Of a DNA stretch of 64,000 nucleotides, positions 28,715 through 57,089 are shown one piece after another (position 1 is the stretch's first letter; every line of letters begins with the position of its first letter). The translations under genes were made by a program, and so were the position numbers. The notes under the pieces are model-generated. The model made no database searches and was not told where the DNA came from. It saw only the letters and a list, made by a program, of their open reading frames with translations. Source of the DNA: Myxococcota bacterium (GTDB lineage Bacteria > Planctomycetota > UBA1135); assembly GCA_047638975.1 (NCBI GenBank), contig JBLINB010000004.1, forward strand, positions 1,161 through 65,160, read 5' to 3'.

Positions 28715-28716
28715 AC

Positions 28717-30910: not shown

Positions 30911-30919
30911 ATTTATAGT

Positions 30920-33659: not shown

Positions 33660-33664
33660 TGGTT

Positions 33665-37628: not shown

Positions 37629-37630
37629 CT

Positions 37631-39469: not shown

Positions 39470-39711
39470 GAGCGGTTATTATCAAGATCAGCATTATGCT
39501 GCTCTTCTATCAGACGTTGAAGATTACTTGGCGAGGTTATTTGATTAAACAGACTGTCGTTATAGTCGACACGCTGTTCGCAACGCTCAACGCAGCGACG
39601 ACTCACTTCAATCCGTCCGCGCGCGGCCATAGACTCATTTTCTAATCCTAAGCCGATTAGCATTTCAGTCAAGAGCGCCATTATCAAAAAGAAGGATGTC
39701 TCGCTCATCAT
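39466..39711 (-). CDS. FtsL-like small bitopic cell division protein
   Basis: 81 aa with a single TM helix followed by a helical segment. It occupies the ftsL slot between rsmH and ftsI with overlapping stops and starts. Confidence 0.55.
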   Translation of the reverse strand: MMSETSFFLIMALLTEMLIGLGLENESMAARGRIEVSRRCVERCEQRVDYNDSLFNQITSPSNLQRLIEEQHNADLDNNRS

Positions 39712-40601
39712 TAAATGGTTTCACGCGAAAGCACTCGCAAGCGTGCACTACGTGAACGAGAGTTCGAGCGTACTTCTACAGCGCTAGGCAAAATGCCTTT
39801 CTTATACACGTTGGCGAAGTCGACACTGCGCGCTTCGTTGCGGAAAGAGTTTTTAACCAGGCGATCTTCAAGAGAATGAAAACTAATTACTGCCAAGCGT
39901 CCACCATCTGCCAACAAACGTGGCGCGCACTCGAGCAACATAGAAGCTTCGTCTAGTTCGCGATTAACAGCGATCCGGATGGCTTGAAAGGTACGCGTGG
40001 CTGGGTGAAGCCCGCCCATGCCGCGACTCACCGTGCGCTCAACCAAGTCGGCAAGCTGGGTGGTACGTAGTAATTGGCCAAAGCGGCGCTGTGCGACTAT
40101 GGCATGCGCAATCTTACGCGCGAAGCGCTCTTCGCCGTATTCGCGCAACCAATGCTCTATCTCATCTTCACTAGCCTCGGCAAGTAATGAGGCCGCCGAC
40201 GCTTTCTGTGTCGTCGCATCCATACGCATATCAAGTGGCCCATCTTGCATGAAAGAGAAACCGCGATCACGATCTTCGATTTGATCGGACGAAACGCCCA
40301 AGTCAGCCAGAATGCCATCAACACGGCCCTTTGCGTGTTCATTTACAACAGACTCTATTGAAGAGAAAGGCGCATGAACATAAATCACTCGCTCGCCGTA
40401 TTTTGCCAAGCGTTTTTTTGTACGCTCAATAGCTTGTGCATCACGGTCGATTCCGATGACTATGTTTTTCGGATTGGCTTCTAAGATTTTCTCAGTGTGA
40501 CCACCGCCGCCAAGAGTTGCATCAACGAAAACCCCGCCACGCTCAGCGTGCAAGGCCTTAACGGATTCATTTAACAAGACTGGAAGATGGCGAGTTGACA
40601 T
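39711..40601 (-). CDS. rsmH: 16S rRNA (cytosine1402-N4)-methyltransferase RsmH
   Basis: HLPVLLNE, DATLGGGGH, DLGVSS and SFHSLEDR motifs. I prefer ATG 40601 over the GTG at 40646. Confidence 0.93.
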   Translation of the reverse strand: MSTRHLPVLLNESVKALHAERGGVFVDATLGGGGHTEKILEANPKNIVIGIDRDAQAIERTKKRLAKYGERVIYVHAPFSSIESVVNEHAKGRVDGILADLGVSSDQIEDRDRGFSFMQDGPLDMRMDATTQKASAASLLAEASEDEIEHWLREYGEERFARKIAHAIVAQRRFGQLLRTTQLADLVERTVSRGMGGLHPATRTFQAIRIAVNRELDEASMLLECAPRLLADGGRLAVISFHSLEDRLVKNSFRNEARSVDFANVYKKGILPSAVEVRSNSRSRSARLRVLSRETI

Positions 40602-40642
40602 TAATTCACTTAGTGGTTTACGGTATTGACGGCATAAAAGGA

Positions 40643-41119
40643 TCACGAGTTATTCTCCGGTGGTTGATAATCAGGACTGGTCATATCACCAGTCGCCAGG
40701 TTGAAGTATTCATCAGCATCGATGAGGCCGCTCTCGTACTTACTACGGTCCCATATTTCGAAATAGCTCAACGCGCCGACGATCATCGCTTCACCACTGA
40801 GACTAATTCGTGCGCGTAATTCTTCTGGCAGCAAAATACGCCCTTGGGCGTCTACTTTTAATTTGCGAGAATTAGCTCCTATCGAACGCCGCAATTTCTT
40901 TGCTTGCAAGGCGTTTTTTTCATTGCGCAAAGTGGCTTCTATCTGCTTAGAAAACTCGCTACTGGTATAGATTTCAAGGCAACCATCGATTGAATTAATA
41001 ACACATTCAAAAGACTCGCGCTCGTGAAGGTCTTTAATCGCATCCATGAACCCACGCGGCACGAACACACGACCTTTTTGGTCTATTTTGTGCGCGAATT
41101 CTCCGTTGAAGTAGGTCAT
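40643..41119 (-). CDS. mraZ: Transcriptional regulator MraZ
   Basis: Duplicated DxxxR-type SpoVT/AbrB-like halves (IDQKGRVFVP and VDAQGRILLP). It is the first gene of the dcw cluster. Confidence 0.93.
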   Translation of the reverse strand: MTYFNGEFAHKIDQKGRVFVPRGFMDAIKDLHERESFECVINSIDGCLEIYTSSEFSKQIEATLRNEKNALQAKKLRRSIGANSRKLKVDAQGRILLPEELRARISLSGEAMIVGALSYFEIWDRSKYESGLIDADEYFNLATGDMTSPDYQPPENNS

Positions 41120-45178: not shown

Positions 45179-45688
45179 ATGACAGAATCCGTTCCCAACT
45201 CTTTGGCTAATGCCGCTGCACACTGCCTACTCGGCGATCTCAGCGAAGCCGGACTAGAGTTTATCCCGCAGCATAAGACAAATAGCGGCTACCGCCAGGA
45301 CATTAAGGATGTAAGAGTACTATTTCTAGGCGCTGAGAATGACCAGAGCGCTAATAGCTTGTTAATTGCCATAGCGAGTAAGGGGCTTGGCATAGATAAA
45401 GACTTTGCTCATATGAACTTACTGAAGAATGACTCGCAAACAATTGAGTCCGCAGTTTCTAACTATAACGCCGAGATAATCATCGTTCTAGGTGCTGAAA
45501 ACGCCATCTCGCTTTTCCCAGGCCACGATTCGCCAACTTCTTTACAGCGTGGATGCCTTCTACAGTCGAGTTATAGCACTACCCCCATCTTGATAACCGA
45601 ATCGCTTAACGCTATGCTCTCCAATCCCGAATTAAAGAAATCATGCTGGGAAGACCTACAGGTAGTCAAAGTAATTCTAAATAATTAG
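45179..45688 (+). CDS. Hypothetical protein (weak uracil-DNA-glycosylase-fold resemblance)
   Basis: 169-aa ORF. VLFLGAEND...IIVLGAENA is only loosely reminiscent of UDG-superfamily strands. No catalytic motif is seen. Confidence 0.2.
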   Translation: MTESVPNSLANAAAHCLLGDLSEAGLEFIPQHKTNSGYRQDIKDVRVLFLGAENDQSANSLLIAIASKGLGIDKDFAHMNLLKNDSQTIESAVSNYNAEIIIVLGAENAISLFPGHDSPTSLQRGCLLQSSYSTTPILITESLNAMLSNPELKKSCWEDLQVVKVILNN

Positions 45689-45708: not shown

Positions 45709-45736
45709 TTGACGCATTGCGTCGCGTCGGCATAAT
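45709..45736 (+). promoter_or_regulatory. Candidate sigma70-type promoter upstream of secretin 1
   Basis: TTGACG (45709-45714), 16-nt spacer, CATAAT (45731-45736). It lies about 60 nt upstream of ATG 45796. Confidence 0.4.
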
Positions 45737-45795
45737 CTTTAGACCTTAGCGGCCGGCGTAACCGTCGCCATTCCATAAACTTGCAAATCATCCCG

Positions 45796-48366
45796 ATGCC
45801 TTACAGTAGAAACTGTCTGTTACTAACATTGTTGACCCTGGGCGCGTGCTCAAGTTCGGAGCCTACATACGACAATGATTCCTTTGTTGCTAATGGCGAC
45901 AGCACACCTTTACTACCTTCTGAAGAGCTACAAGCTCAAGAAGCTAGTGAAGCGGCCACCGTTCGTTCCCAGCGTAATGCCTTGATGGCAGAGGCCTACG
46001 TTGACCTCGGAAATGACGCTTTCGAGCGTGGTGACTACAAGGGTTCAGCCGCTCAATACGCGAAGGCTTCTCTGCTAGATCCAAGCAATGTCATGGCGCG
46101 CGACGGCTCACGTCGTTCACAATCTGCTATGGCTGGTGGCTCTTACGACATCGATTCTTCAGAAAATGTTTTGCAAACTGCCCAAGCACGCGCAACGGCA
46201 AACCGCATTCGAATCGAAGGTCTTGTGCGTGATGGCGATCAAGCTATGTCCCAGGGGCAATATGCAAAGGCCGTTGATTACTACCAAATCGCCAAGCAAG
46301 CTGTCGATTACAACCCTAACTTAGCTGTTGGTGCCCTCGACGGAACTTTAGTGCATTCAAAGTTTGAGCAAGCTGTTAGCGCACGCAACGATCTTGAATC
46401 GAGCCAGCGTAGCAACATGGCTGCCGCAGCAGCTTCAGAGGCTGCTGAGTTGCAAACCGAACGCGTTAACTACCGTAACAACTTAATCTCGACTCACCTT
46501 TCAGAAGCCAACGAGCATTTCCTAAGTGGTTTCCCGTCAAAGTCTGTTTCAACACTTGACACGCTCTTGCGCATCGATCCGGGTAATACCGACGCACTTG
46601 CTCTGCGCGCCGTAGCCTTAGAAACTGCGCATCAGCAACGCGCCGCCAAGACATCTTCTGATTTCCGCGAACAGTGGCAGCGTACTTTCGAAGACTTGCG
46701 CCACAGTGCAATGCCTGCAGCATCACACTTTGCATTCGACGAAGACTACTACAATGCCGTGGTCTCCAAGCGTACTTCTCTAGACTCCGCTGGTGATGTC
46801 AAAGAGCTTGATGCTACAACTGTAAAGATTAACTCTCAGTTAGACAGCACTATGATTACACCAAGTTTCGACAATTCTCTAGAAGAGATTGTTCCTAACT
46901 TGAGCGCATTCGCTGGCGTAAACTTCTTCATTACACGCGCCGTACAAGACGACGTCGATGAAGACTTGAAAATGATTCGCATTAATTTCAAGAACCCCCT
47001 CCCTATTAGTCGCGTGTTGCGCATCATGGAAGACGTCATGGGTGGCGAAGTTAAATTCGTAGTTCGCAATGGCGCGGTGTATGTAGTAACTGCCGAAGAA
47101 GCAGATACTGAATCGGTTACACGTCAATACGAAGTTCGTGACATTGTTAACTCAATCAAAGACTTCCCTCTTCCTGACTATAACCTTGCTCCTTCTGGTG
47201 GCATCGAGCCTAGCGAAGAAGAATTGCCAGAATCAGAAGCGACAGTTCTTACTGCCGACGATCTGCAAACAACTATTGAAGAAAGTATCGAGCCTGACTC
47301 ATGGGATGGCGAGCTACATTCTCTTAGTATCGAAAATGGCACACTGATTGTGCACCACCGTCCTGAAGTCCTTGACGAAATCGCGCAAATGCTTGAAGAC
47401 TTGCGCGCGCCCGCCAACATTATGGTCTACATCAAAGTTCGTTTCTTGCTTGTAGAAGATTCGTTCCTCGAAGACGTAGGCGTTGACTTCCGTGGATTGG
47501 GCAACGATGCGACATCTGGTGTCCCTGGTGACGTCGGAAGCATTAACACCGTTTTCAATGACTTTGGTGACTCTACTAATTACGGTTCACCTGGCGCACC
47601 GGGCGTACTTGGCACAGGCCAAGATGTTGGTGCAGCGTTTGCTGAAGCAGGCGAAGATATTCTCATCATCGGTCGTACCGAGCAGCTATACGATAGCCAA
47701 CTCGGTGACTCTGACTTCGAAGCATCTGGTGGATTAGCAATGCAGTATGCATGGCTAGACGACACCGAGCTACAAATGATTTTGCGCGCAGTCAAGAAAT
47801 CAAAGCGTTCGGAAACAGTCATCGAGCCAAGCTTGATGGTACATAACACCGCACGTGCTAACCTAGTTGTAGCCAACCAAGTGTCATACATCTCTGACTT
47901 CGACGTAGAGATCGCATCTTCTGCATCTATCGCCGACCCTATCGTGTCAGTAGCTAACGACGGCGTCTTCCTAGATGTGCGCCCAGTAGTTACAGCCGAC
48001 CGTCGTTTCGTATGGATTGACGTTCGTCCGACAGTTGCAAACCTTAAGCGCCCTATTGCTACTCTACAGACATCACTAGGTACTGGTTCTCCAGTTAACT
48101 TAATGTTGCCTGAACTAGAGCTGCAAAAAGTACGCACCCGCGCACTAGTCCCAGACGGAGGCACCCTGTTGCTTGGTGGTATGAAAACCGTCAAGGAAAA
48201 GACGCTTGAATCCGGAGTTCCTTTCCTAAGTGATATTCCAATTCTTTCCTTCTTCTTCTCGCGCAAAGGCTCTTACGAGACTTACCAGAAGTTGTTAATT
48301 CTACTCACAGCCAACATTATTCTACCAGAAGAGTACGAGCCAACTGTACTGCCAAGCAATCTGTAG
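45796..48366 (+). CDS. Secretin-family outer-membrane channel protein with lipoprotein signal and N-terminal TPR-like extension (secretin 1)
   Basis: Start MPYSRNCLLLTLLTLGAC (lipobox). There are about 300 aa of TPR-like helices. A secretin N-domain follows (TLIVHHRPEVLDEIAQMLEDLR..MVYIKVRFLLV). The C-terminal secretin core is GGTLLLGGM...GVPFLSDIPILSFFF. Confidence 0.85.
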   Translation: MPYSRNCLLLTLLTLGACSSSEPTYDNDSFVANGDSTPLLPSEELQAQEASEAATVRSQRNALMAEAYVDLGNDAFERGDYKGSAAQYAKASLLDPSNVMARDGSRRSQSAMAGGSYDIDSSENVLQTAQARATANRIRIEGLVRDGDQAMSQGQYAKAVDYYQIAKQAVDYNPNLAVGALDGTLVHSKFEQAVSARNDLESSQRSNMAAAAASEAAELQTERVNYRNNLISTHLSEANEHFLSGFPSKSVSTLDTLLRIDPGNTDALALRAVALETAHQQRAAKTSSDFREQWQRTFEDLRHSAMPAASHFAFDEDYYNAVVSKRTSLDSAGDVKELDATTVKINSQLDSTMITPSFDNSLEEIVPNLSAFAGVNFFITRAVQDDVDEDLKMIRINFKNPLPISRVLRIMEDVMGGEVKFVVRNGAVYVVTAEEADTESVTRQYEVRDIVNSIKDFPLPDYNLAPSGGIEPSEEELPESEATVLTADDLQTTIEESIEPDSWDGELHSLSIENGTLIVHHRPEVLDEIAQMLEDLRAPANIMVYIKVRFLLVEDSFLEDVGVDFRGLGNDATSGVPGDVGSINTVFNDFGDSTNYGSPGAPGVLGTGQDVGAAFAEAGEDILIIGRTEQLYDSQLGDSDFEASGGLAMQYAWLDDTELQMILRAVKKSKRSETVIEPSLMVHNTARANLVVANQVSYISDFDVEIASSASIADPIVSVANDGVFLDVRPVVTADRRFVWIDVRPTVANLKRPIATLQTSLGTGSPVNLMLPELELQKVRTRALVPDGGTLLLGGMKTVKEKTLESGVPFLSDIPILSFFFSRKGSYETYQKLLILLTANIILPEEYEPTVLPSNL

Positions 48367-48385
48367 AAAAAGATGAAACTGTGCC

Positions 48386-48416
48386 GCCGGAGACGTCTAT
48401 ACGTCTCCGGCTTTTT
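48386..48416 (+). terminator. Rho-independent terminator between secretin 1 and the TPR genes
   Basis: 11-bp perfect stem GCCGGAGACGT / ACGTCTCCGGC, 4-nt loop, then TTTTT. It sits 20 nt after the secretin 1 stop. Confidence 0.75.
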
Positions 48417-48446
48417 CAAAGTCCCCCCGCACACTAATTCGGCCTA

Positions 48447-51263
48447 ATGATCACTGGAATTACCTTTTGTTTAATGTTTGCCTTGCCTCAACAGGCTGGC
48501 TCCGATCTTCTTGCATCAAAGAATGCAGATGCCGCACGCGCAATCACTGCCGAATTTGGTCTTGATTACTGGTCAGAAAAGCTAGTTGAACGTTCGCTAG
48601 CGACTGCAACCTCAGCCGACGGCAAGTCCGACTTATTACTGGCACGTTGCGATGTGTTACGTATGGTTGCTGGCCGTAAGCTTGATGATCTCGAACGACT
48701 TTTTGCTCTTGGCGAAGCTGGTACTGCATACACCGAGTACCTAGAGAGTAATCCAAGTTCTTCGCGCGCGACTAAAGCACAATCAAATCTGGGCATCTTG
48801 GCATTTATTTATGGCCAAACATTAGTGCAGTTGATAAATGGCGGCAGCATCACTGCCGAAGATGTTGCCAAAGCCAGTGAAGAAGCCGACGTCATTTTCA
48901 AGGCTGCCTTAAAAGGGATGAACTCTGTTATCTCATGGTGGGAAAACCTCGGAGACGATGATCCAGAGAAGGCTAGTTCTGAATACACCGACTACCTCCC
49001 TTCTGTGTACAACCGCGCGCTAGTCTATCGCTATTGGGCAGAGTTGTTTGACGAAGGAAGTATTGACAGAGAACAAAAAGCTGAAAAAGCTATTGATTTA
49101 CTCTCTGAATTTGCGCTTGGTGCACCCTTCTTACCGCAGCAACGCGCTTACTCTGCTTTAGCCGACTGCTATGCCGTAATCGGAGAATACGAAGATGCTA
49201 CCGACTACTACCTATATGTTAGTCAACGTGTAAATGACTTAATCGAGCAAGAAGGCAGCACTCTGGGCCTCAATTACATTGCGCTGCTGCAAGACGCTAG
49301 CCAAGAGGCTGTCCTTGGGTTAGTGAAAATGTTCCAGCGCAATGGCGATGCCGCTATGTTCTGGGAGACCTTCAATCAATTCGAAGCATGGGTTACCGAA
49401 AATGACGTAACCGTTAGCCGTACGGGATCTCAGGTGCGCCTTGCTGCTGCTGAGCAAATGATTAATGAAGGTCGCTCCGCCGAAGCTATTGATCTTGCTG
49501 CTGCTGTAGCCGCCGCTAACGAGCGTAACCTTTTGCGCCTACAAGCTAATTCAATCATGGGGCGTGCCATTTCGCTCGCACCTGCTGATGCAAAAATATC
49601 GCTAGACATTCTATACAGCGCTGCAGAAGGTGCTTATTTCCAGAAACGCTTTGACGACGCTATTGACGGTTTCCGTTTGCTAGCTCCCCGCCTAGATTCA
49701 GACGACGAGCAATATGGCGCTAAAACATACTACTACTTAGGTCTGTCTTGGGCAAAACTTGACGAAGCTTTATTAGCAATGGTAAGTCATCAAGTGGGTT
49801 ACCAAACCTACCCTAACGACGAAGAGTATGCTCTAAAGAATGCAGAGAAATGGCAAAAAGCTGCCGAGTCTCTCTCACTAGCTAATCCTGGTGACGAAAT
49901 ACTTCGCGAGTTCAACGGTGAAGCTACCCAGGCAGTAAAAATCCTTGGCGGCGGCGGCGACAACCTCGAGTGGAATCAAGCGAAACAACTTCTTGATTTA
50001 GCAAAGGCTTCGGCACGCGTTGCCAAAGGCAAGGAAGTCACGAGTAGCGAATTCAAAAAAGCGGCTGCGGCATACCAACGTGCCATCGACGCATTGTCTA
50101 GCATCCCAGTCGATAACGATTTTTACGAATACGCGATGGTGACTATAGGTGTAGCCGAATACAACGCCAGCGACTTCGATGCGACTGCGTCCAAACGTTC
50201 TGTCGACAAGCTCAACGAGTACCTCAACGACTACATCACTGACGCGAACAATGATCCGCAAGATCCTCTGCAGCGTAAAGTGCGTAAAGACAAAGAGCCT
50301 GAAGCCGTTTTCTACCTTGGTTTAGCGCAGCGCAAAGACAATAACCACTTAGCAGTTTTAACTAGTTTTGAAGGTTTCTCCGAGCGTTACCCTGATCAGG
50401 CGTCATTGGCTCACGCCACAATGACCTACCGCATTGAAGCCTACATTGCGCTCGACGACGTCGACTCTGCTATTGCCGAATACGAATCAATGCATGCTAA
50501 CAGTGCTAGCGATTCTCGGTTATCCATCGGCGCTTACTACATCTACCTGCACTACCGGGTGCAAACTGAAGCCGCAATCGGAGAAGATCGCTTGGCCTCT
50601 TTGGAGCTGCAAGCCAAATACATCCACGACTTCAATAAGTATGCCGCTGACCCACGCTGGCAAAACCTTCTCGGAGAAGCAGACTTGTTGACATCACTTA
50701 GTGAATTCAAAGACGCTGGTAAGTTGTACGAGTTAATTCTGACTAAGCATGCTAAGTCGAGTGACTTTAGTGACTCTTTTAAATTCAAGACTCAGATTGG
50801 CTTTGTTGAATCTTTATTAGCACAACGCCAGATTGGAAAAGCTGTGCCGCTAATCAATGCCATGCTCGAATCGCGTCCTAGCAATCTACGCGTTAAAACG
50901 GCTGCTGTAAAAGTGAAAGCCGGTTTCTTGCTTTACATCAATAACCGTATTGTTGAAGTCCCTGGCGAAGGTACTGAAGAGGCCTTGACTACTGCTTCAG
51001 GCCTATCTACCGAGATCATTCGGTTAGCTGCTTATCAAGCGGACAACGAAACACCTTCGATTAACAAGTTCTTCTACCCTGATTGGTGGGAAGCACAGGT
51101 TACTCATGGCTATGTGTTGTACCAACGCAACCTTACCTCACCTGCTGATCTCGGCGCGCATAAAAAATTCGTCGAAGGCTTAATGCGTCAAGCACCAGAG
51201 CTTGGTGAAGATGTAGTCGGGCCTAGAGTTTCTGAATCACTTAAGTGGATACTAAACCGTTAA
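48447..51263 (+). CDS. Large periplasmic TPR/all-helical repeat protein
   Basis: 938 aa with a signal peptide. There are many TPR-like Ala/Tyr/Leu-patterned helical pairs throughout and no enzymatic motif. Confidence 0.6.
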   Translation: MITGITFCLMFALPQQAGSDLLASKNADAARAITAEFGLDYWSEKLVERSLATATSADGKSDLLLARCDVLRMVAGRKLDDLERLFALGEAGTAYTEYLESNPSSSRATKAQSNLGILAFIYGQTLVQLINGGSITAEDVAKASEEADVIFKAALKGMNSVISWWENLGDDDPEKASSEYTDYLPSVYNRALVYRYWAELFDEGSIDREQKAEKAIDLLSEFALGAPFLPQQRAYSALADCYAVIGEYEDATDYYLYVSQRVNDLIEQEGSTLGLNYIALLQDASQEAVLGLVKMFQRNGDAAMFWETFNQFEAWVTENDVTVSRTGSQVRLAAAEQMINEGRSAEAIDLAAAVAAANERNLLRLQANSIMGRAISLAPADAKISLDILYSAAEGAYFQKRFDDAIDGFRLLAPRLDSDDEQYGAKTYYYLGLSWAKLDEALLAMVSHQVGYQTYPNDEEYALKNAEKWQKAAESLSLANPGDEILREFNGEATQAVKILGGGGDNLEWNQAKQLLDLAKASARVAKGKEVTSSEFKKAAAAYQRAIDALSSIPVDNDFYEYAMVTIGVAEYNASDFDATASKRSVDKLNEYLNDYITDANNDPQDPLQRKVRKDKEPEAVFYLGLAQRKDNNHLAVLTSFEGFSERYPDQASLAHATMTYRIEAYIALDDVDSAIAEYESMHANSASDSRLSIGAYYIYLHYRVQTEAAIGEDRLASLELQAKYIHDFNKYAADPRWQNLLGEADLLTSLSEFKDAGKLYELILTKHAKSSDFSDSFKFKTQIGFVESLLAQRQIGKAVPLINAMLESRPSNLRVKTAAVKVKAGFLLYINNRIVEVPGEGTEEALTTASGLSTEIIRLAAYQADNETPSINKFFYPDWWEAQVTHGYVLYQRNLTSPADLGAHKKFVEGLMRQAPELGEDVVGPRVSESLKWILNR

Positions 51264-51267
51264 TAAT

Positions 51268-52329
51268 ATGATCCTTAGCACAATCTCATTAGTACTCTTT
51301 GCTGCGCAAGCACGTGTTGACTTGCTTGACGGTTCGAAAGTATTCGGAAACATTTCAAGCATCGACCTTAATAGTGTCGTCCTTGTTGATGGCGAAGATA
51401 ACGAAACTACGCTTACTACCGATAACGTCCTTGATGTGACTCCTGCGACTAACGCAGTGTTCCGCCAGGCAGAAATCGCAGCCAGCAACCTCGACTTCAT
51501 GAATGCTAGTAATGCTTTCGCCGAAGTCGCGTCTAAATCCGAAGACCCTGCCCTGCAATCCTTTGCTGAGCTACGTAGCGCCGAAGTATTAATCGCTTGG
51601 GCGAAAACCGACAACTCGCAATATTCTGCGGCTATCACATTACTAAACACCTGGACGAGCGATAACAGCGAGTCCTTCTGGTTGCCACGTGCGCAGATGG
51701 CTTTGGCCCAAGCGCTAGCGAACACTGGTGATATTGATGGCGCAACCTCTTTGATGTCAGCGCTATCCGACATGGCCTTCGAAAAGAATTTGGCGCGCCA
51801 CATCGAATTGCAGGCCAACATCATTCGCTGCGAAGCGTTCTTGATTGGCCAACAGGCACAGGTCGCCCAAAGTCGCCTCAAAAGTCTTAACGACAAAATA
51901 GGGTCGATGATACGCGATTCAGAGACTCCTGTAGCATTAATGACTACAGCACGCGGACTGTACTCAAAAGTACAGATCCTGTCTGGGCAAGCCATTCAAG
52001 CTACAGACGGAATATCCGCAGCGCAATCCTACTGGCAGGCCCTTGCTGACGATTCTGCGACATCACCGGTTGTGCGCTCTGCCGCATGGCTTGGTCTAGC
52101 CGAGGCCGCTATAGAATCCGGAGAGCTACGTTCTGCGCAGCTACAACTAGCGAAAATTGTCGCGACTATGCCGTCCTCGCCCGATGTAACCCCTCAAGCT
52201 CTTTACCAGCTTGCGTCTGTCAGTAACTCACTGCTAGACACCAAGGCCTCACGCTCAGCAGCTAACCGTCTGAGTACTTATTACCCGAATTCATCTTGGG
52301 CAATAAAAGCGACTTCTCAGGGCCTATAA
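51268..52329 (+). CDS. TPR-like repeat protein
   Basis: 353 aa with an N-terminal hydrophobic segment, a short beta-rich region, then TPR-like helices. It starts 4 nt after the preceding stop. Confidence 0.55.
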   Translation: MILSTISLVLFAAQARVDLLDGSKVFGNISSIDLNSVVLVDGEDNETTLTTDNVLDVTPATNAVFRQAEIAASNLDFMNASNAFAEVASKSEDPALQSFAELRSAEVLIAWAKTDNSQYSAAITLLNTWTSDNSESFWLPRAQMALAQALANTGDIDGATSLMSALSDMAFEKNLARHIELQANIIRCEAFLIGQQAQVAQSRLKSLNDKIGSMIRDSETPVALMTTARGLYSKVQILSGQAIQATDGISAAQSYWQALADDSATSPVVRSAAWLGLAEAAIESGELRSAQLQLAKIVATMPSSPDVTPQALYQLASVSNSLLDTKASRSAANRLSTYYPNSSWAIKATSQGL

Positions 52330-52398
52330 TCTCCTTGGGATTGCTAGAATCGACACCTCATTCAGCGGCAACTCTACCGCAATAAACAACTAACAATC

Positions 52399-53100
52399 AT
52401 GTCAACAGTTCGTAACTTCATCCCAGTATTAGCTGGTGTTCTACTTACCGCTCCTCAGCTGCTTGCAGCCGACGAAGGTGGCGCATCTATCATCGATGGC
52501 ATTAAGAATGCTGGTGCGATTGGTGCTTTCATTATTCTCATGTCTGTGATCGCAATGGCTCTAGTCATCGAGCACTTCATGACTATTAAGCGCGAAAAAC
52601 TTGCTCCGCCAGAAGTAATTGACGAGATTGAAGAATTGTTCAATGACAAGAACTACCAAGAAGCTCTTGAAGTATGCGAGGCACAGCCATGCTACTTCAG
52701 TAATGTAGTACTTGAAGGTATCCGCAAGATCGGTCATCCTTTTGGAACTATTGAAAAGCACCTTGAAGAGAAGAACGAAGAAGAGAACCTGAAGCTACAA
52801 CAGAAAATCGGTTGGCTCAGCCTCATTGCGGGTCTGGGTCCTATGATGGGTCTGTTCGGCACAGTATGGGGAATGGTTGGCGCTTTCGCTAAGATTAGTT
52901 CTGCTGGTGCCGGTGGTGTAAACCCTGCCGACTTCGCGGGTACGATTTCTTTGGCGCTAATGACAACCGTACTTGGTCTCGTTGTTGCGATACCGACTAC
53001 TGCTTTCTACGCTTTGTTCCGCAACAGGGTTCAAATGATGGGTCTAGAAATTGGCACCATCGTTGAAGATCTATTCGAACGCTTTCGCATAGCTAACTAA
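52399..53100 (+). CDS. exbB: MotA/TolQ/ExbB-family proton channel protein
   Basis: Signal-like N-terminus, three TM helices, and the conserved LGLFGTVWGMVGAF motif. Confidence 0.9.
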   Translation: MSTVRNFIPVLAGVLLTAPQLLAADEGGASIIDGIKNAGAIGAFIILMSVIAMALVIEHFMTIKREKLAPPEVIDEIEELFNDKNYQEALEVCEAQPCYFSNVVLEGIRKIGHPFGTIEKHLEEKNEEENLKLQQKIGWLSLIAGLGPMMGLFGTVWGMVGAFAKISSAGAGGVNPADFAGTISLALMTTVLGLVVAIPTTAFYALFRNRVQMMGLEIGTIVEDLFERFRIAN

Positions 53101-53126
53101 GCTGTTCTCTTTAACAGCTAATAACT

Positions 53127-53753
53127 ATGTCAACGAAAAGAAAAGAAGTAGAAGAGATCGAGATCGACATGACGCCGATGATCGACATGACATTCCTGTT
53201 GATCATCTTCTTCATCTTGGTTAATGACATGTCAAAGAAGGACCTCGAACAGCTCAAGCTTCCCATTGCAATGGAAGCCGGGCATGACGAGCCTCCTGAA
53301 CGACGTCAGATCTTGAATATTCGCTGGTTCCCTGCCGGCGGCGTGCCTGATAGTATTGTTACTCAATACCAGCAAATGGGCATCGCAATTCCAGGAGACC
53401 TAGAGTGGTCCGACATCGTGTGGCGTGGTCAAATTCTTTACTACCCTAACATCGATACTGGTGGTCGTACCGACCCTATCCGTAAGGGGCGCGAAGACCA
53501 CTACTGGAAGCTTGCACAAACAATGGAAAACGAATGGGTTCCTTTCTTTGAGCGCAAGATGGATGAGACTTTGGGTATCGAATTACCAGACGATCCCATT
53601 CTATTGCGTGCCGACCGCAACACTCCTTTCAAGTATCTACAGAAGATCATGGAGGTTTGCACACGCGACGGCATCCAAATCTGGAAAGTACAACTTGCCG
53701 CTTCTGAAGATCCAGAAGTTGTTAAGGCTCGTGAAGCAGCTAGAGGTAACTAA
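53127..53753 (+). CDS. exbD: ExbD/TolR-family protein, long form (208 aa)
   Basis: MTPMIDMTFLLIIFFIL TM helix with the conserved Asp. The periplasmic domain ends LLRADRNTPFKYLQKIMEVC. An insertion of about 60 aa is present relative to typical ExbD. Confidence 0.85.
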   Translation: MSTKRKEVEEIEIDMTPMIDMTFLLIIFFILVNDMSKKDLEQLKLPIAMEAGHDEPPERRQILNIRWFPAGGVPDSIVTQYQQMGIAIPGDLEWSDIVWRGQILYYPNIDTGGRTDPIRKGREDHYWKLAQTMENEWVPFFERKMDETLGIELPDDPILLRADRNTPFKYLQKIMEVCTRDGIQIWKVQLAASEDPEVVKAREAARGN

Positions 53754-53755
53754 CA

Positions 53756-54271
53756 ATGGCTAGAAAAAAGAAAAAGTTCAAAGAGATAAAGACTGACATG
53801 ACGCCAATGATTGACGTTACGTTTTTGCTCCTTATTTTCTTCATTGTAACGCTGAAGTTCAAGATTCTCGAGGGGCGCCTAGATGCTGCCCTGCCGAAGG
53901 ATCGCGGTACTTCTGCAAGCGAGGCTATTGAAATCGATAAGATTGATATCTTGCTTAAGGTTGCTGAGCCTGGTGAATTAGTAGAAGACCCCGGTAATCC
54001 GTCCTTGGTGCAATACGAAGGACGTCGTATTCGCGTCGAAATTGGTTCTTTCCAGTACTACTACGACCCGTTTAACATAGATGATCCAGAGAATCCGTTA
54101 CCTGACTTAACGACGTTCTTAAAAGACCCCGCGTACGACAAGGAAGAGACTCCTGTCTCTCTAGATGCCCGAAAAGGCGTCGTCTATGGCGACATTGTGG
54201 TTCTCCTCGATGTCATCATACGCGAAAAGTTCCAAAAGGTGTCCTTTGCTGGCACTCACGAGCAAGACTAA
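53756..54271 (+). CDS. exbD: ExbD/TolR-family protein (171 aa)
   Basis: MTPMIDVTFLLLIFFIV TM helix with the conserved Asp, and a C-terminal VSLDARKGVVYGDIVVLLDV. It starts 2 nt after the preceding stop. Confidence 0.85.
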   Translation: MARKKKKFKEIKTDMTPMIDVTFLLLIFFIVTLKFKILEGRLDAALPKDRGTSASEAIEIDKIDILLKVAEPGELVEDPGNPSLVQYEGRRIRVEIGSFQYYYDPFNIDDPENPLPDLTTFLKDPAYDKEETPVSLDARKGVVYGDIVVLLDVIIREKFQKVSFAGTHEQD

Positions 54272-54408
54272 ACTCTTTAATTTAGCTCATTTAGACACTT
54301 TTTGGCATGGCGAACCCCGTCGAGAATTGCTAATCTGTGCCTTCCTATTCCTCAATAGGACTACCCTGAATCCCCTGCGTTCTTTAGTGTCGTTTCACGC
54401 GATAAAAA

Positions 54409-57030
54409 ATGAAAACATTTCTCAATTCCGCCGCTTACACCATCCCACTTGTACTACTTTTTAGTGCCTGTGCTTCTTCCGAGTCTGACATGGAAACCAC
54501 AACAGACTTTGCTGAAGGGGGAGTTTCTTCGCAGCAACAAAGCGATCCTAATCTCATTCAAGATGCGCAAGCTGCAAGCTCTTTGCGTGATCAGCAAATT
54601 GCAATGTTGGTTCGCGAGCACGTAACCCGTGCCCGTCAAGCATATGCAGATGCACGTCTGATTGAAGCAGAGAACGAACTTCTGGCAGCACTTCAGCTGA
54701 ATGCCGCAGCGGCTGACGCCACTACCCTACTTGAACAAGTACAGGTAGCTTTAGGGCGCGCTAACACCGACATTACTGGCTCTAGCGATGATGTTTTACT
54801 ACGCGCTAAAGCACGTGGCGAACGTTTGCAAGCAGATGCGCGCGCCAACCTCGAAGCGGCTAAGAATCTACGCGCTGAAGGTAACTATGATGCAGCACTC
54901 GGCAAGTTAAACCTTGCAAGTAGTATCGTAAACGGTAGCGACTTAAACCTTAATTGGGGTTCTTTAGATATAGAGATATCTAATCTACTCGAATCTGTTA
55001 CAGACGAGCGCGACGCCGCTATGTCTAACCAACGCGAGATGGCAACACGTGATTCTTTCACTGCTCTGCAGCAGCAACGCCAACTCGAGCTTGAGCGCTT
55101 AAACTTGCGCCGCGATGGCATCCTCGAAGACGCTATTGATAGCTACTCTGCTGGCAAGTTTGATGTAGCCATTGAATTGTGTACTGGCCTAATCGTCGAA
55201 GACCCGCATAACATGCGCGCACAAGAGCTACTTGATACGGCTCAAAAGTCTCGACACCTTAACCTCGAAGATACTTGGGTAAAAGTACGCGCCGATCGTT
55301 TCCGCACGTGGCACGAAGATATCGAAGAGGCACGTGTGATTAATAACGAAATCGTTACCCTGCCTAATGCCGAGCACTGGCGCAAAATCAATGACTTGCG
55401 TAAGAAGTACCGCATCCTTCCAGATAGCGACGAAAACTCTGCAGAAAACAGTCTTTTGAAGAAAGAGATCGTTTCTCAGCGCATACCAAGTTTGGTTTTC
55501 GAAGGTGAAACATCCCTTGAAACTGTAATTGATCAACTACGTACCTTTACTAGCATCCCATTTGTTGTAACACCAGATGCGATTGATGCTGTTGATGCCG
55601 AAGGTATCGAATTCAACCTTAGCATGACACACGAACTTAGTGTCGAGCATGCTCTAAACATCATTACTGATGCGGCTGGCCCTGAAGTGATTTATAGCTT
55701 CCGTCATGGTGTTGTTTACATTACCTCGCTATCGAACGCCTACAATAACTTGGTGTTGCGCCCACACGACATTCGCGACCTTACAGCAATGATTGTTGAC
55801 CAAGCTGCTCCACAAATCGACAAGATTCAGTTACCTGATTCTAGTTTCTCTATGGATGAAGAGGCGCCACAGTTTGGTGGCCCGGTTGGTGAACCAGTAC
55901 CTATCATGGATCCTGACAACATCGCAACCTTAGTGCAGCAAAGTATCGCTACAGGCACATGGGATTCGATCGAGGGTGTTTCCATTCAAGCTCAAAACGG
56001 CCAACTATTCGTACGCCACACTCCTGAAGTGCACCGCGAAATCGAAGAGTTCCTTGAGGGCTTCCGTCGCTACACATCTTCAATGGTTAACATTGAAGCT
56101 AAGTTCCTAGTGATCACGAAAGATTACCTCCAAGAGATTGGCGTTGATTGGCGCGGTGCTCGTACTGCAGCTGCTGCTGGCGGCCAACTGATCCCACTTG
56201 ACGATATCACTTCCGGATTTGACGATAATGCGTCTGCCGCTTTTGATGACAACGGTCTTGGATTGCCTTCTGGCTCAGGCTCTAACCCTACTGCTGGCGC
56301 TTACTACAGTGAAGGTGCTGACGGTTCTATCCGTGCACGTACCGAGGGCATCCTTGGCGACTACGGTTCTCGCCTCGGAGTAGCTGGTGGCCTAGCAATG
56401 CAATTGTCATTTATTGACGATTTACAGTACAGCTTAATCATGAACGCTGTTCGTAAAGACGAGCGTGCACAAGAATTGACTTCTGTGATTCTTTCAACGC
56501 AAAACACTGAGCGCGCATATGCGGCAATGCTTAACCAAATAACTTACATTCAAGATTTTGATGTAGAAGTTGCTTTGGCATCGTTTATCGCTGACCCTGT
56601 TGTTGGCGTAATCTCTGATGGTATCGTGCTTGATGTACGTCCAACCATTGCTCAAAATCGTAAGACTGTTAGCCTAGAGCTACGTCCAACGATTGCTACT
56701 ATCCAGCGCCCTATCGCCGAGTTCACCTCGTCTTTAGCTGGTCTTACAACACCTATTACTATTCAGCTTCCTGAGCTACAAGTAGCATCGGTAAACACGA
56801 CAGTGGTTGTTCCAGATGGTGGTACCGTTGTAATTGGCGGTCTAAAGAAGTTGTTCAACATCGATCAACGCGCTGAGATCCCTTTCCTGTCAGACATCCC
56901 TATACTTAGCCTACTCTTCAAGAAAGAAGGCGAGGCTTCAGAGAATCGTGACGTAATCCTAATGATTACTGCGACCATCATTGATGCTAACGAGTTAAAG
57001 GATCGCCTTGATGCGCAACTTGGCAACTAA
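54409..57030 (+). CDS. Secretin-family outer-membrane channel protein with lipoprotein-like signal and N-terminal TPR-like extension (secretin 2)
   Basis: LVLLFSAC signal. TPR/coiled-coil N-terminal third. N-domain (QLFVRHTPEVHREIEEFLEGFR..MVNIEAKFLVI). Secretin core GGTVVIGGL...EIPFLSDIPILSLLF. It is a paralog of secretin 1 over its whole length. Confidence 0.85.
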   Translation: MKTFLNSAAYTIPLVLLFSACASSESDMETTTDFAEGGVSSQQQSDPNLIQDAQAASSLRDQQIAMLVREHVTRARQAYADARLIEAENELLAALQLNAAAADATTLLEQVQVALGRANTDITGSSDDVLLRAKARGERLQADARANLEAAKNLRAEGNYDAALGKLNLASSIVNGSDLNLNWGSLDIEISNLLESVTDERDAAMSNQREMATRDSFTALQQQRQLELERLNLRRDGILEDAIDSYSAGKFDVAIELCTGLIVEDPHNMRAQELLDTAQKSRHLNLEDTWVKVRADRFRTWHEDIEEARVINNEIVTLPNAEHWRKINDLRKKYRILPDSDENSAENSLLKKEIVSQRIPSLVFEGETSLETVIDQLRTFTSIPFVVTPDAIDAVDAEGIEFNLSMTHELSVEHALNIITDAAGPEVIYSFRHGVVYITSLSNAYNNLVLRPHDIRDLTAMIVDQAAPQIDKIQLPDSSFSMDEEAPQFGGPVGEPVPIMDPDNIATLVQQSIATGTWDSIEGVSIQAQNGQLFVRHTPEVHREIEEFLEGFRRYTSSMVNIEAKFLVITKDYLQEIGVDWRGARTAAAAGGQLIPLDDITSGFDDNASAAFDDNGLGLPSGSGSNPTAGAYYSEGADGSIRARTEGILGDYGSRLGVAGGLAMQLSFIDDLQYSLIMNAVRKDERAQELTSVILSTQNTERAYAAMLNQITYIQDFDVEVALASFIADPVVGVISDGIVLDVRPTIAQNRKTVSLELRPTIATIQRPIAEFTSSLAGLTTPITIQLPELQVASVNTTVVVPDGGTVVIGGLKKLFNIDQRAEIPFLSDIPILSLLFKKEGEASENRDVILMITATIIDANELKDRLDAQLGN

Positions 57031-57052
57031 TCTATCTGATTAGTCTATCTAC

Positions 57053-57089
57053 AAAAAAAACCTCGCTCTATCTGAGCGAGGTTTTTTTT
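57053..57089. terminator. Bidirectional rho-independent terminator
   Basis: A8 run, CCTCGCTC-tatct-GAGCGAGG hairpin, T8 run. It serves convergent secretin 2 (+) and the HAD gene (-), whose stop overlaps the T-run. Confidence 0.8.

What the first reader, a model, noticed from the sequence alone, without database searches (positions are those of the whole stretch)
45709..57089. Two lipoprotein secretins bracketing TPR-TPR-ExbB-ExbD-ExbD: a candidate proton-motive-force-coupled secretin machine
Seen in sequence:
- Seven co-directional genes are delimited by a promoter-like element (45709-45736) and a strong bidirectional terminator (57053-57089).
- The order is secretin 1, a 938-aa TPR protein, a 353-aa TPR protein, ExbB, ExbD (208 aa), ExbD (171 aa), secretin 2.

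Established knowledge:
- Secretins normally occur with T2SS, T4P, T3SS or filamentous-phage partners. These are a GspE/PilB-type ATPase, a GspF/PilC platform, (pseudo)pilins and PilMNOP or GspC.
- ExbB/ExbD normally occur with TonB, and TolQ/TolR with TolA, TolB and Pal.
- None of those partners is recognisable anywhere in this 64-kb window.

Inference:
- The locus may couple a 5:2-type ion-driven stator (ExbB with an ExbD1/ExbD2 heterodimer) to large gated outer-membrane pores. The TPR proteins would bridge the periplasm.
- This would be a new combination, functionally analogous to GldLM-SprA in the type IX secretion system.
- If the host is a planctomycete-like organism, it is also a speculative candidate for energised macromolecule uptake or export across the outer membrane.
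Basis: partly seen in the sequence, partly recalled or inferred. Interest (0 to 1): 0.88.

Follow-up and report, generated by a model that had tools for sequence, protein, structure and literature searches.

The report
Secretin–TPR–ExbBD envelope cluster of Planctomycetota
A gene cluster found in many uncultured Planctomycetota places two outer-membrane pore proteins (secretins) next to a proton-driven ExbB/ExbD motor and two large scaffold proteins, with no TonB, secretion ATPase or pilin nearby. This suggests, but does not prove, an undescribed proton-powered outer-membrane machine.

Summary
Seven co-directional genes at 45781-57030 encode a liposecretin, a 938-aa TPR-like superhelix, a 353-aa TPR protein, ExbB, two ExbD paralogs and a second liposecretin. 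A conserved promoter precedes them and a bidirectional terminator follows.

Two corrections apply:
- A strong hairpin terminator or attenuator directly follows secretin 1. Its stem covaries in relatives.
- In many relatives an unrelated gene separates ExbD2 from secretin 2.

The host is an uncultured marine Planctomycetota lineage. The gene order held in every related locus examined that spans it, including loci where the TPR protein is only about 20-35% identical.

More distant metagenomic loci carry PilM-like–x–x–secretin(s)–giant TPR–TPR–ExbB–ExbD–ExbD. Of 11 distant secretin loci with both flanks covered, 7 carry ExbBD. None of the 79 scanned loci (725 kb) has a GspE/PilB-type ATPase signature or a pilin signal, and no TonB or TolA was detected.

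The window therefore holds a reduced form, lacking the PilM module, of a wider undescribed cluster. That cluster is related to the Akkermansia Amuc_1098–1101 "pilus-like" system. Functional linkage between secretin and ExbBD is well supported by genomics. Proton-motive-force coupling, transport direction and substrate remain inference.

The parts
45709..45736 (+). Sigma-70-type promoter-like site (TTGACG, 16 nt, CATAAT) upstream of secretin 1
   Evidence: It is the best-scoring site in the region at 10/12. Both hexamers are invariant and the spacer is variable in L004, L005 and L011. Function is inferred.
45781..48366 (+). Secretin 1, a lipoprotein. It has an N-terminal TPR/helical region, an N-domain and a C-terminal secretin domain. 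The likely true start is the ATG at 45796.
   Evidence: Pfam Secretin E 3e-25 and TPR_2 E 4.6e-8. NCBIfam Amuc_1098_fam 1.4e-28, and MshL and PilQ about 1e-23, all below the family cut-offs. The lipobox LGAC is conserved in orthologs.
48386..48416 (+). GC-rich hairpin (11 bp, 8 GC pairs) followed by a T-run. It is an internal intrinsic terminator or attenuator after secretin 1.
   Evidence: Found by the terminator scan and read in the sequence. A hairpin at the same position is kept in relatives through different stem sequences, mostly followed by T-rich tracts.
48447..51263 (+). 938-aa periplasmic all-alpha TPR-like superhelix (scaffold) with a short signal-peptide-like N-terminus
   Evidence: AlphaFold2 pLDDT 87.8, with 40+ helices and residues 1-17 disordered. 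Foldseek matches only giant TPR scaffolds at TM about 0.2. There is no PDB relative by sequence. The family has 288 clusters at 50% identity, nearly all full-length members (fragments aside) 920-1020 aa.
51268..52329 (+). 353-aa periplasmic protein: signal peptide, a conserved ~50-residue N-terminal segment (fold not modelled), then TPR repeats
   Evidence: Pfam TPR_19 and TPR_21 at about 1e-7. The weak match to YbgF/CpoB (2.7e-10, 41 bits against a cut-off of 90) is sub-threshold. Alignment of 10 orthologs.
52399..53100 (+). ExbB/TolQ-family proton-channel subunit with an N-terminal signal-like segment
   Evidence: Pfam MotA_ExbB 3e-26. The best NCBIfam match is TolQ at 1e-19, below its cut-off. 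The channel motifs PMMGLFGTV.GM and ALxTTxLGL are conserved.
53127..53753 (+). ExbD paralog 1 (208 aa, long periplasmic part)
   Evidence: Pfam ExbD 5e-14. The transmembrane motif MTPMIDMTF carries the conserved aspartate. It forms its own ortholog group across the clade.
53756..54271 (+). ExbD paralog 2 (171 aa)
   Evidence: Pfam ExbD 1e-14. It resembles ExbD1 only in the transmembrane segment. It belongs to a separate ancient ortholog group.
54409..57030 (+). Secretin 2, a lipoprotein and a full-length paralog of secretin 1 (29% identity)
   Evidence: Pfam Secretin 6e-23. BLASTP against secretin 1 gives 1e-97 over the whole length. The lipobox cysteine is conserved. The AlphaFold2 monomer shows a helical region at 48-335, an alpha/beta domain at 345-445 and an N3-like domain at 500-557; the barrel is poorly modelled. 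PDB sequence matches are M. xanthus PilQ, f1 pIV and GspD, over the last ~70 residues only.
57053..57089 (.). Bidirectional intrinsic terminator between secretin 2 (+) and the HAD hydrolase gene (-)
   Evidence: A 16-bp stem with A8 and T8 arms.

Best explanation
The locus encodes one conserved cell-envelope apparatus of uncultured Planctomycetota.

Components:
- Two lipid-anchored secretins with long TPR/helical N-termini form outer-membrane channel(s).
- Two secreted TPR proteins (938 and 353 aa) act as periplasmic scaffolds or adaptors.
- ExbB with two non-redundant ExbD paralogs forms an inner-membrane proton-driven motor.

No TonB or TolA is present, and the phylum largely lacks TonB and TonB-dependent receptors. 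I therefore infer that the motor's work is passed through the ExbD periplasmic domains and the TPR adaptors to the secretins. It could open or cycle the gate, or drive a fibre or macromolecule through it.

The window shows a reduced form of a wider cluster: PilM-like–x–x–secretin(s)–giant TPR–TPR–ExbB–ExbD–ExbD. That cluster is related to the Akkermansia Amuc_1098–1101 'pilus-like' system. In the window's lineage the PilM module is missing from the locus.

Shown: gene content, domain families, lipoboxes, conserved synteny and the absence of ATPase, pilin and TonB genes nearby. Inferred: physical assembly, energy coupling, transport direction and substrate.
For: -
- The gene order held in every related locus examined that spans it. 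This includes members whose 938-aa homolog matches only at E 1e-24 to 1e-38.
- The link recurs with different flanks: L020 has PilM–x–x–secretin–ExbB–ExbD–ExbD. L052, L054, L056 and L106 have PilM–x–x–secretin(s)–TPR–TPR–ExbB–ExbD–ExbD.
- Of 11 distant secretin loci with both flanks covered, 7 carry ExbB and ExbD.
- No secretion-ATPase Walker-A signature or pilin signal was found in 725 kb of related loci.
- No TonB, TolA, TolB or Pal hit was found in the window.
- ExbD1 and ExbD2 are ancient, position-conserved paralogs, and both keep the transmembrane aspartate.
- The 938-aa family is specific. It has 288 clusters, nearly all full-length members (fragments aside) are 920-1020 aa long, and the named members are all Planctomycetota MAGs.
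[quoted passage not shown] 2012 (PMC3422733).
Against: - All evidence is genomic. There are no expression, interaction or phenotype data.
- A conserved terminator-like hairpin separates secretin 1 from the TPR–ExbBD core.
- Unrelated genes are often inserted before secretin 2.
- The flanking UDG and HAD genes are conserved as well. Part of the synteny may therefore reflect slow rearrangement rather than selection.
- About half of the distant PVC-type secretin loci have no ExbBD within 10 kb.
- PilM-like genes in relatives suggest a pilus-type machine, whose ATPase could be encoded elsewhere in the genome.
- The rest of the genome could not be searched for TonB, PilB, PilC or pilins.
Confidence: 0.5

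Rival explanations
1. Biogenesis helper. The ExbBD–TPR module does not power transport. It helps assemble, insert or anchor the large secretin multimers through the peptidoglycan and outer membrane. In this reading the TPR proteins act like pilotins or assembly factors (PilF/PilW/Tgl, BamD-like), and the module works like GspA/GspB (ExeA/ExeB).
For: - TPR lipoproteins are the usual secretin assembly factors (established knowledge).
- The 353-aa protein has weak BamD/YfiO and YbgF-like TPR matches.
- The secretins themselves carry TPR N-termini and lipid anchors.
- The tight core operon is TPR–TPR–ExbB–ExbD–ExbD, with the secretins set apart on either side.
Against: - Lipidated secretins are usually self-piloting (established knowledge, e.g. 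HxcQ).
- A dedicated ion-driven motor with two conserved ExbD paralogs is a costly device for assembly alone.
- No peptidoglycan-binding or ATPase (GspA-like) component was found.
Confidence: 0.2
2. Tol-Pal-like envelope system. ExbB and ExbD are the TolQ and TolR of an organism without canonical TolA/TolB/Pal. The TPR proteins replace TolA and CpoB. The system tethers or constricts the outer membrane, and the secretins are neighbours that merely share envelope-related regulation.
For: - The best NCBIfam matches of ExbB and ExbD are TolQ and TolR, all sub-threshold. The 353-aa protein matches YbgF/CpoB at 2.7e-10.
- One ortholog of the 938-aa protein is annotated 'TolA-binding protein' by JGI.
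- In the window and its close relatives the locus lies a few genes from the dcw cell-wall and division cluster.
Against: - No TolA, TolB or Pal was found.
- Proximity to the dcw cluster is not kept in the more distant loci L023-L028.
- The linkage to secretins and PilM-like genes recurs in unrelated genomic contexts.
Confidence: 0.15
3. Unrelated neighbours. The secretins serve a type IV pilus or type II secretion system encoded elsewhere, the ExbBD–TPR genes do something else, and the arrangement persists by phylogenetic inertia.
For: - An internal terminator follows secretin 1.
- Relatives carry insertions before secretin 2.
- The functionally unrelated UDG and HAD flanks are conserved too.
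- Planctomycetes do encode PilB/PilC/PilT and pilins elsewhere in their genomes (PMC7397252).
Against: - The association recurs in distant loci with different flanks and different layouts.
- A rate of 7 in 11 is far above what a handful of exbB genes per genome would give by chance within 10 kb (the chance estimate is my own reasoning).
Confidence: 0.1

Closest known systems
Akkermansia muciniphila Amuc_1098–Amuc_1102 'pili-like' cluster (PVC-type TPR-secretin 'PilQ' plus PilM-like Amuc_1101)
   Same: - The secretin has the same architecture: an N-terminal TPR/BamD-like region and a C-terminal secretin domain (PMC4960237).
- Secretin 1 matches the Amuc_1098 family model over its N-terminal and middle part at 1.4e-28.
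- Distant relatives of the locus carry an Amuc_1101-family PilM at 3e-65, followed by two unknown genes and the secretin.
- No canonical pilin or ATPase lies in either cluster.
   Different: - The window lacks the PilM-like gene and shows no detectable Amuc_1099, 1100 or 1102 homologs.
- Scores are far below the family cut-off (99 bits against 750).
- The TPR–TPR–ExbB–ExbD–ExbD module and the second secretin are not reported in the Akkermansia papers I read. The Akkermansia genome itself could not be checked.
Ton system (ExbB–ExbD–TonB with TonB-dependent transporters)
   Same: - An ExbB/ExbD proton-driven motor with conserved channel residues and the ExbD transmembrane aspartate.
- Tandem exbD genes are common in Ton operons (my own knowledge).
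- It energises an outer-membrane protein across the periplasm.
   Different: - No TonB and no TonB-dependent receptor was found in the window or in related loci.
- The outer-membrane partner would be a multimeric secretin rather than a 22-strand barrel with a plug.
Myxococcus Agl–Glt gliding machinery (TolQR-like motor, TPR periplasmic proteins, outer-membrane proteins)
   Same: It combines a TolQ/R-ExbB/D-type motor with several TPR proteins and outer-membrane components in one trans-envelope complex. PMC3169522 was among the hits; the composition is stated from my own knowledge.
   Different: - Glt uses TonB-like GltG/GltJ and OmpA-like or beta-barrel outer-membrane proteins, not secretins.
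- No homology beyond the motor and generic TPR was shown here.
Type IX secretion system, GldLM/PorLM–SprA with PorW/SprE
   Same: - The concept is the same: an ion-driven inner-membrane motor linked through the periplasm to a large gated outer-membrane translocon, with a TPR lipoprotein (SprE) attached.
- SprE appears among the Foldseek hits of the 938-aa model (8gl8_I, TM about 0.2).
   Different: - There is no sequence homology of the motor, the translocon or the adaptors.
- The match of the 353-aa protein to PorW/SprE is 20 bits against a cut-off of 250.
- The resemblance is an analogy only.
Type II secretion GspA/GspB (ExeA/ExeB) and TonB-dependent type IV pilus phenotypes
   Same: Older observations link TonB-like proteins or TonB paralogs with secretin assembly or type IV pilus function. 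An A. baumannii study involving TonB2 in natural transformation surfaced (PMC8811193). The ExeB and P. aeruginosa TonB3 cases come from my own knowledge.
   Different: - Those systems have canonical ATPases, pilins and TonB-like proteins.
- None has a dedicated ExbBD–TPR module encoded beside the secretin.

Membership tests
Secretin superfamily (PF00263) | C-terminal secretin domain scoring above the Pfam gathering cut-off | tested here: met
   Scores are 89.2 and 81.7 bits against a cut-off of 27.5. PDB profile hits include PilQ, pIV, GspD and RcpA.
Type IV pilus secretin PilQ / MshL (TIGR02515, TIGR02519) | Score above the NCBIfam cut-off | tested here: not met
   Scores are 73-106 bits against cut-offs of 250-284.
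Type IV pilus / type II secretion machinery | A GspE/PilB-type ATPase, a GspF/PilC platform protein and (pseudo)pilins encoded with the secretin | tested here: not met
   The window has no such Pfam hit. No Walker-A signature of this ATPase family and no class-III signal peptide was found in the window or in 79 related loci. The platform protein was checked by Pfam in the window only. Presence elsewhere in the genome cannot be tested with these tools.
Type IV pilus alignment subcomplex (PilM/N/O/P) | A PilM actin-like protein adjacent to the secretin | tested here: not met
   It is absent from the window. It is present in relatives: the first of the three extra upstream genes in L026 aligns to PilM_2 of L020 at E 2e-7, and the L020 protein matches Pfam PilM_2 at 3.5e-38 and Amuc_1101_fam at 3e-65.
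Ton system | ExbB and ExbD | tested here: met
   PF01618 scores 92 bits and PF02472 scores 53 and 55 bits, all above the cut-offs. NCBIfam equivalog cut-offs for ExbB, ExbD, TolQ and TolR are not reached.
Ton system | TonB (N-terminal anchor, proline-rich spacer, TonB_C domain) and a TonB-dependent receptor | tested here: not met
   No TonB_C or receptor hit was found in any window ORF of 150 aa or more. The rest of the genome was not available.
Tol-Pal system | TolA, TolB and Pal alongside TolQ/TolR; CpoB (YbgF) | tested here: not met
   No TolA, TolB or Pal hit was found. The YbgF model scores 40.9 bits against a cut-off of 90.1 on the 353-aa protein.
Amuc_1098 family (PVC type IV pilus outer-membrane protein, NF042912) | Score above the equivalog cut-off of 750 bits | tested here: not met
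   Scores are 99.4 bits for secretin 1 and 75.1 bits for secretin 2. They are distant relatives that share the architecture, not members.
Liposecretins (self-piloting lipidated secretins, e.g. HxcQ) | An N-terminal lipobox with an invariant cysteine | tested here: met
   LGAC and FSAC in the window. The cysteine is conserved in the orthologs of both secretins. Lipidation itself cannot be tested with these tools.
Type IX secretion (GldL/M, SprA, PorW/SprE) | Homologs of GldL/GldM, SprA or PorW scoring above the cut-offs | tested here: not met
   The only hit is a 20-bit TPR-level match to PorW/SprE, against a cut-off of 250.

The most novel reading that the evidence does not exclude
A TonB-independent, proton-motive-force-driven secretin translocon. 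An ExbB pentamer holding an ExbD1/ExbD2 heterodimer would act through the two TPR adaptors on the N-domains of the liposecretins. This would open the pore and drive macromolecules (polysaccharide, protein or DNA) or a non-canonical fibre across the outer membrane. It would be the molecular basis of the CCCP-sensitive macromolecule uptake into the planctomycetal periplasm, whose players are still unknown (PMC5394234; PMC12673574).
Probability: 0.2. Interest if true: 0.92.

Novelty: new variant of a known kind. Interest (0 to 1): 0.72.

Why it matters
Secretins are known only as passive, gated exits of ATP-driven machines: type II secretion, type IV pili, type III secretion and filamentous phage. 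ExbBD/TolQR motors are known to act through TonB, TolA or Glt proteins.

A conserved cluster that links the two without TonB, ATPase or pilin would point to a new way of energising a large outer-membrane pore. This is notable in a phylum that mostly lacks TonB-dependent transport.

It would also give concrete candidate genes for two open questions:
- What the PVC 'PilM–TPR-secretin' clusters, such as Akkermansia Amuc_1098–1102, actually do.
- How Planctomycetes take macromolecules into their periplasm in an energy-dependent way.

If the link proves to be only assembly help or neighbourhood, the finding is still a useful annotation of a widespread, unnamed Planctomycetota gene cluster.

Tried and rejected
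1. Literature. Nine full-text searches combined secretin, ExbB/ExbD, TPR, Planctomycetes, crateriform structures, PilM, Amuc and outer-membrane terms. None found a paper describing this cluster. The MotAB evolution paper and the CAZyme paper were not relevant.

2. Three extra upstream genes in relatives.
- Pfam and NCBIfam gave no hits.
- PDB profile searches gave nothing.
- BLASTP of the short L001 form against PilM was negative.
- Only the 507-aa L026 form aligned to PilM.
- The second and third of these genes remain unassigned. My idea that they are PilN/O/P or GspM/C analogs is untested.

3. The 938-aa protein. The PDB sequence search gave only marginal TPR hits. Foldseek gave only generic TPR scaffolds at TM about 0.2. 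I do not read the hits to the Campylobacter flagellar scaffold or to SprE as homology.

4. The secretin monomer model has low confidence in the barrel (pLDDT 59.8), so I did not run a fold search on it.

5. STN/N0 domain. No Pfam STN hit was found. Secretin_N hits on the N3-like region were only sub-threshold.

6. The first metagenome scan used an alignment too diverse to give a search pattern. It succeeded with fewer sequences.

7. A TonB- or TolA-like role for the 938- and 353-aa proteins through an uncleaved N-terminal anchor is unlikely. Their N-termini are short, poorly conserved and signal-peptide-like, with no SHLS-type motif.

8. Host taxonomy below the phylum could not be resolved with the available tools.


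Full report
**1. What is in the window**

Between 45781 and 57030 there are seven co-directional + strand ORFs of 861, 938, 353, 233, 208, 171 and 873 aa.

- Pfam assigns a Secretin domain to the first (E 3e-25) and the last (6e-23), MotA_ExbB to the fourth (3e-26) and ExbD to the fifth and sixth (5e-14, 1e-14).
- It assigns TPR families to the third protein and to the N-terminus of the first.
- NCBIfam places both secretins nearest to type IV pilus-type secretins (MshL, PilQ) and to the Akkermansia Amuc_1098 family. All scores are far below the family cut-offs.
- ExbB and ExbD match TolQ and TolR best, again below the cut-offs.
- The two secretins are full-length paralogs with 29% identity (E 1e-97).
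- The two ExbD proteins resemble each other only in the transmembrane segment.
- Both secretins start with a signal peptide ending in a lipobox (LGAC, FSAC). The cysteine is kept in the orthologs of both.

**2. The two unknown proteins**

- The 938-aa protein has only a sub-threshold TPR hit and no PDB relative by sequence.
- Its AlphaFold2 model, built on 28 homologs, is confident (pLDDT 87.8). It shows an uninterrupted stack of about 40 helices after a disordered 17-residue N-terminus.
- Foldseek finds only giant TPR scaffolds (Ski3, IFT-A, Ctr9) at TM-scores near 0.2. Two bacterial periplasmic scaffolds also appear: one chain of the Campylobacter flagellar scaffold and the type IX secretion protein SprE. 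I read this as 'large TPR-like superhelix', not as homology to any of them.
- The 353-aa protein has a signal peptide, a conserved ~50-residue N-terminal segment (its fold was not modelled) and TPR repeats. Its YbgF/CpoB match is sub-threshold.
- The N-termini of both proteins are short and poorly conserved. I therefore take them as secreted proteins, not TonB- or TolA-like anchored transducers.

**3. Transcription signals**

- The terminator at 57053-57089 is a textbook bidirectional one.
- The promoter-like site at 45709-45736 is the best in the region. The count of such sites is no more than chance. Its hexamers are invariant and its spacer variable in four relatives.
- A hairpin at the same place is kept in relatives through different stem sequences, usually followed by a T-rich tract. 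It is therefore a conserved terminator or attenuator.
- The tight core operon is TPR938–TPR353–ExbB–ExbD1–ExbD2, with gaps of 4, 69, 26 and 2 nt. Secretin 2 follows after 137 nt.

**4. The rest of the window**

The flanks are housekeeping genes:

- Upstream lie a short UDG-like ORF, a radical-SAM protein, the Der GTPase and the dcw cluster from mraZ to murB.
- Downstream lie a HAD hydrolase and an oligopeptide ABC transporter.
- No ORF of 150 aa or more hits a secretion ATPase, platform protein, PilM/N/O/P, GspC/L/M, TonB, TolA, TolB or Pal.
- No class-III pilin signal is present.

**5. Host and conservation**

- Homologs of the 938-aa protein and of secretin 2 come from uncultured, mostly marine 'Planctomycetota bacterium' MAGs.
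- An exhaustive profile search found 288 clusters (at 50% identity) of the 938-aa family. Nearly all full-length members (fragments aside) are 920-1020 aa long, so this is a specific family, not generic TPR.
- The gene order secretin–TPR950–TPR360–ExbB–ExbD–ExbD–secretin held in every locus examined that spans it. These were the loci L001-L018 from GTDB genomes and metagenomes and nine loci reached through distant ExbB, secretin or TPR homologs.
- The UDG gene on one side and the HAD gene on the other are conserved too. Part of this synteny may therefore be inertia.
- The junction before secretin 2 is plastic: nothing (window), a PLP decarboxylase, a sulfatase, a third ExbD or small ORFs.
- ExbD1 and ExbD2 form two ancient, position-conserved ortholog groups. 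Both keep the transmembrane aspartate.

**6. The wider family**

- Several relatives (L001, L018, L022, L025, L026, L027) carry three extra genes between UDG and secretin 1.
- The first of these has a cytoplasmic domain, one transmembrane helix and a periplasmic coiled coil.
- Its 507-aa form in L026 aligns over about 320 residues with a bona fide PilM (E 2e-7).
- That PilM belongs to a distant locus, L020. There an Amuc_1101-family PilM (3e-65; Pfam PilM_2 3.5e-38) is followed by two unknown genes, a TPR-secretin, ExbB, ExbD, ExbD and a 365-aa protein. The last has a proline-rich linker and an ExbD-like C-terminal domain.

A metagenome scan with the secretin motif VPDGGT[VL][LV][ILV]G returned 79 loci. 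I annotated them with HMMs built from the loci in hand.

- Four distant loci (L052, L054, L056, L106) read PilM-like–x–x–secretin(–secretin)–giant TPR–TPR360–ExbB–ExbD–ExbD. Others read secretin–TPR–ExbBDD–secretin, or ExbBDD…secretin–secretin.
- Of 11 distant loci (41% identity or less in the secretin C-terminus) with both flanks covered, 7 carry ExbB and ExbD, 5 carry a PilM-like gene and 4 carry both.
- No GspE/PilB/PilT/CpaF-type Walker-A signature and no pilin signal occurs in the 725 kb.
- Named members of these ExbB clusters are again all Planctomycetota MAGs.

**7. Interpretation**

The secretin–ExbBD link is old and recurs in different layouts and contexts. It is therefore most likely functional. 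The window holds a reduced version, without the PilM module, in which the second secretin sits after the motor genes.

The closest described system is the Akkermansia Amuc_1098–1102 cluster.

- Its mechanism is unknown (PMC5332112).
- The papers I read do not mention an ExbBD extension.

Most Planctomycetes surveyed lack TonB and TonB-dependent receptors (PMC3422733). An ExbBD motor in this phylum therefore needs another client. The neighbouring TPR proteins and secretins are the obvious candidates.

My best explanation, at confidence 0.5, is a single trans-envelope apparatus. In it the proton-driven ExbB–ExbD1/ExbD2 motor acts through the TPR adaptors on the liposecretins.

Three rivals remain open:

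- A role of the module in secretin assembly only.
- A Tol-Pal-like envelope function.
- Mere neighbourhood.

The internal terminator, the insertions before secretin 2 and the conserved unrelated flanks argue for caution.

**8. The speculative part**

Energy-dependent (CCCP-sensitive) uptake of dextran and GFP into the planctomycetal periplasm is documented, along with fibres arising from crateriform structures (PMC5394234). A 2025 review still calls the players unknown (PMC12673574).

Nothing here ties this cluster to that process. The organisms are uncultured, and I could not show that the cluster occurs in the model species. I give this reading a probability of 0.2.

**9. Verdict**

The combination is real, conserved and apparently undescribed. 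However, it derives from a PVC PilM–secretin system, and its energetics are inferred.
- Novelty: a new variant of known kinds, namely a secretin system and an ExbBD/TolQR-type motor system.
- Interest: 0.72.

Noticed in passing
window 48386-48416; same position in L001, L003-L006, L008, L009, L011-L013, L015, L016, L025: A GC-rich hairpin with a T-run directly follows the secretin 1 stop codon. It is kept in relatives through different stem sequences (covariation), which suggests a conserved terminator or attenuator that sets the secretin-to-motor expression ratio.
   Followed up: partly
L001 4638-7190; L025 479-2975; L026 3847-7234; L027 3523-6964; L022 1-1230: Three extra genes lie between UDG and secretin 1 in many relatives. 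The first is a PilM-like protein with a transmembrane helix and a coiled coil. It is 507 aa in L026 and L027 but shortened to 320-358 aa in L001 and L025, and absent in the window lineage. This looks like stepwise loss of the PilM module. The second and third genes have no detectable family.
   Followed up: partly
between ExbD2 and secretin 2: window 54272-54408; L003 16022-17554; L025 11822-13294; L026 15751-17898; L027 16108-18063; L023 12160-12672: This junction is an insertion hot spot. Depending on the lineage it holds a PLP-dependent decarboxylase, a sulfatase, a third ExbD, small ORFs or nothing.
   Followed up: partly
L020 15085-16182: A 365-aa protein lies downstream of ExbD2 in the distant locus. 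It has an N-terminal hydrophobic segment, a PDPNPNP-type proline-rich linker and a weak ExbD-like C-terminal domain. This is a TonB-like architecture without a TonB_C domain.
   Followed up: no
window 26057-41119: The dcw cluster (mraZ, mraW, ftsI-like PBP, murE, murF, mraY, ftsW, a LysM protein, murG, murC, murB) is not followed by ftsQ/ftsA/ftsZ. Instead an 885-aa ORF without a Pfam family lies on the opposite strand (26057-28714). This fits an FtsZ-less planctomycete that makes peptidoglycan.
   Followed up: no
window 45179-45688: The ORF upstream of secretin 1 is the positional counterpart of a uracil-DNA-glycosylase-family gene in relatives (185-297 aa, with a PF03167 hit). Here it is only 169 aa and has no detectable UDG hit, so it may be decaying.
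   Followed up: partly
L023 1-1578; L024 1-1086; L027 1-1415; L028 2093-4885 (all minus strand): In more distant members another TPR protein of 914-967 aa is encoded divergently just upstream of the UDG gene. The window has no counterpart at that position.
   Followed up: no
window 4111-7209 (minus strand) and 16-1191 (minus strand): Large ORFs of 1032 aa and 391 aa have no Pfam family. The 1032-aa ORF has only a marginal beta-propeller hit.
   Followed up: no
L019 6470-12664: A Planctomycetales MAG (GCA_025997475.1) has two TPR-secretins in tandem, with no ExbBD or PilM-like gene among the Pfam-annotated genes of its 18-kb contig. The secretin pair can therefore occur without the motor nearby.
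   Followed up: no
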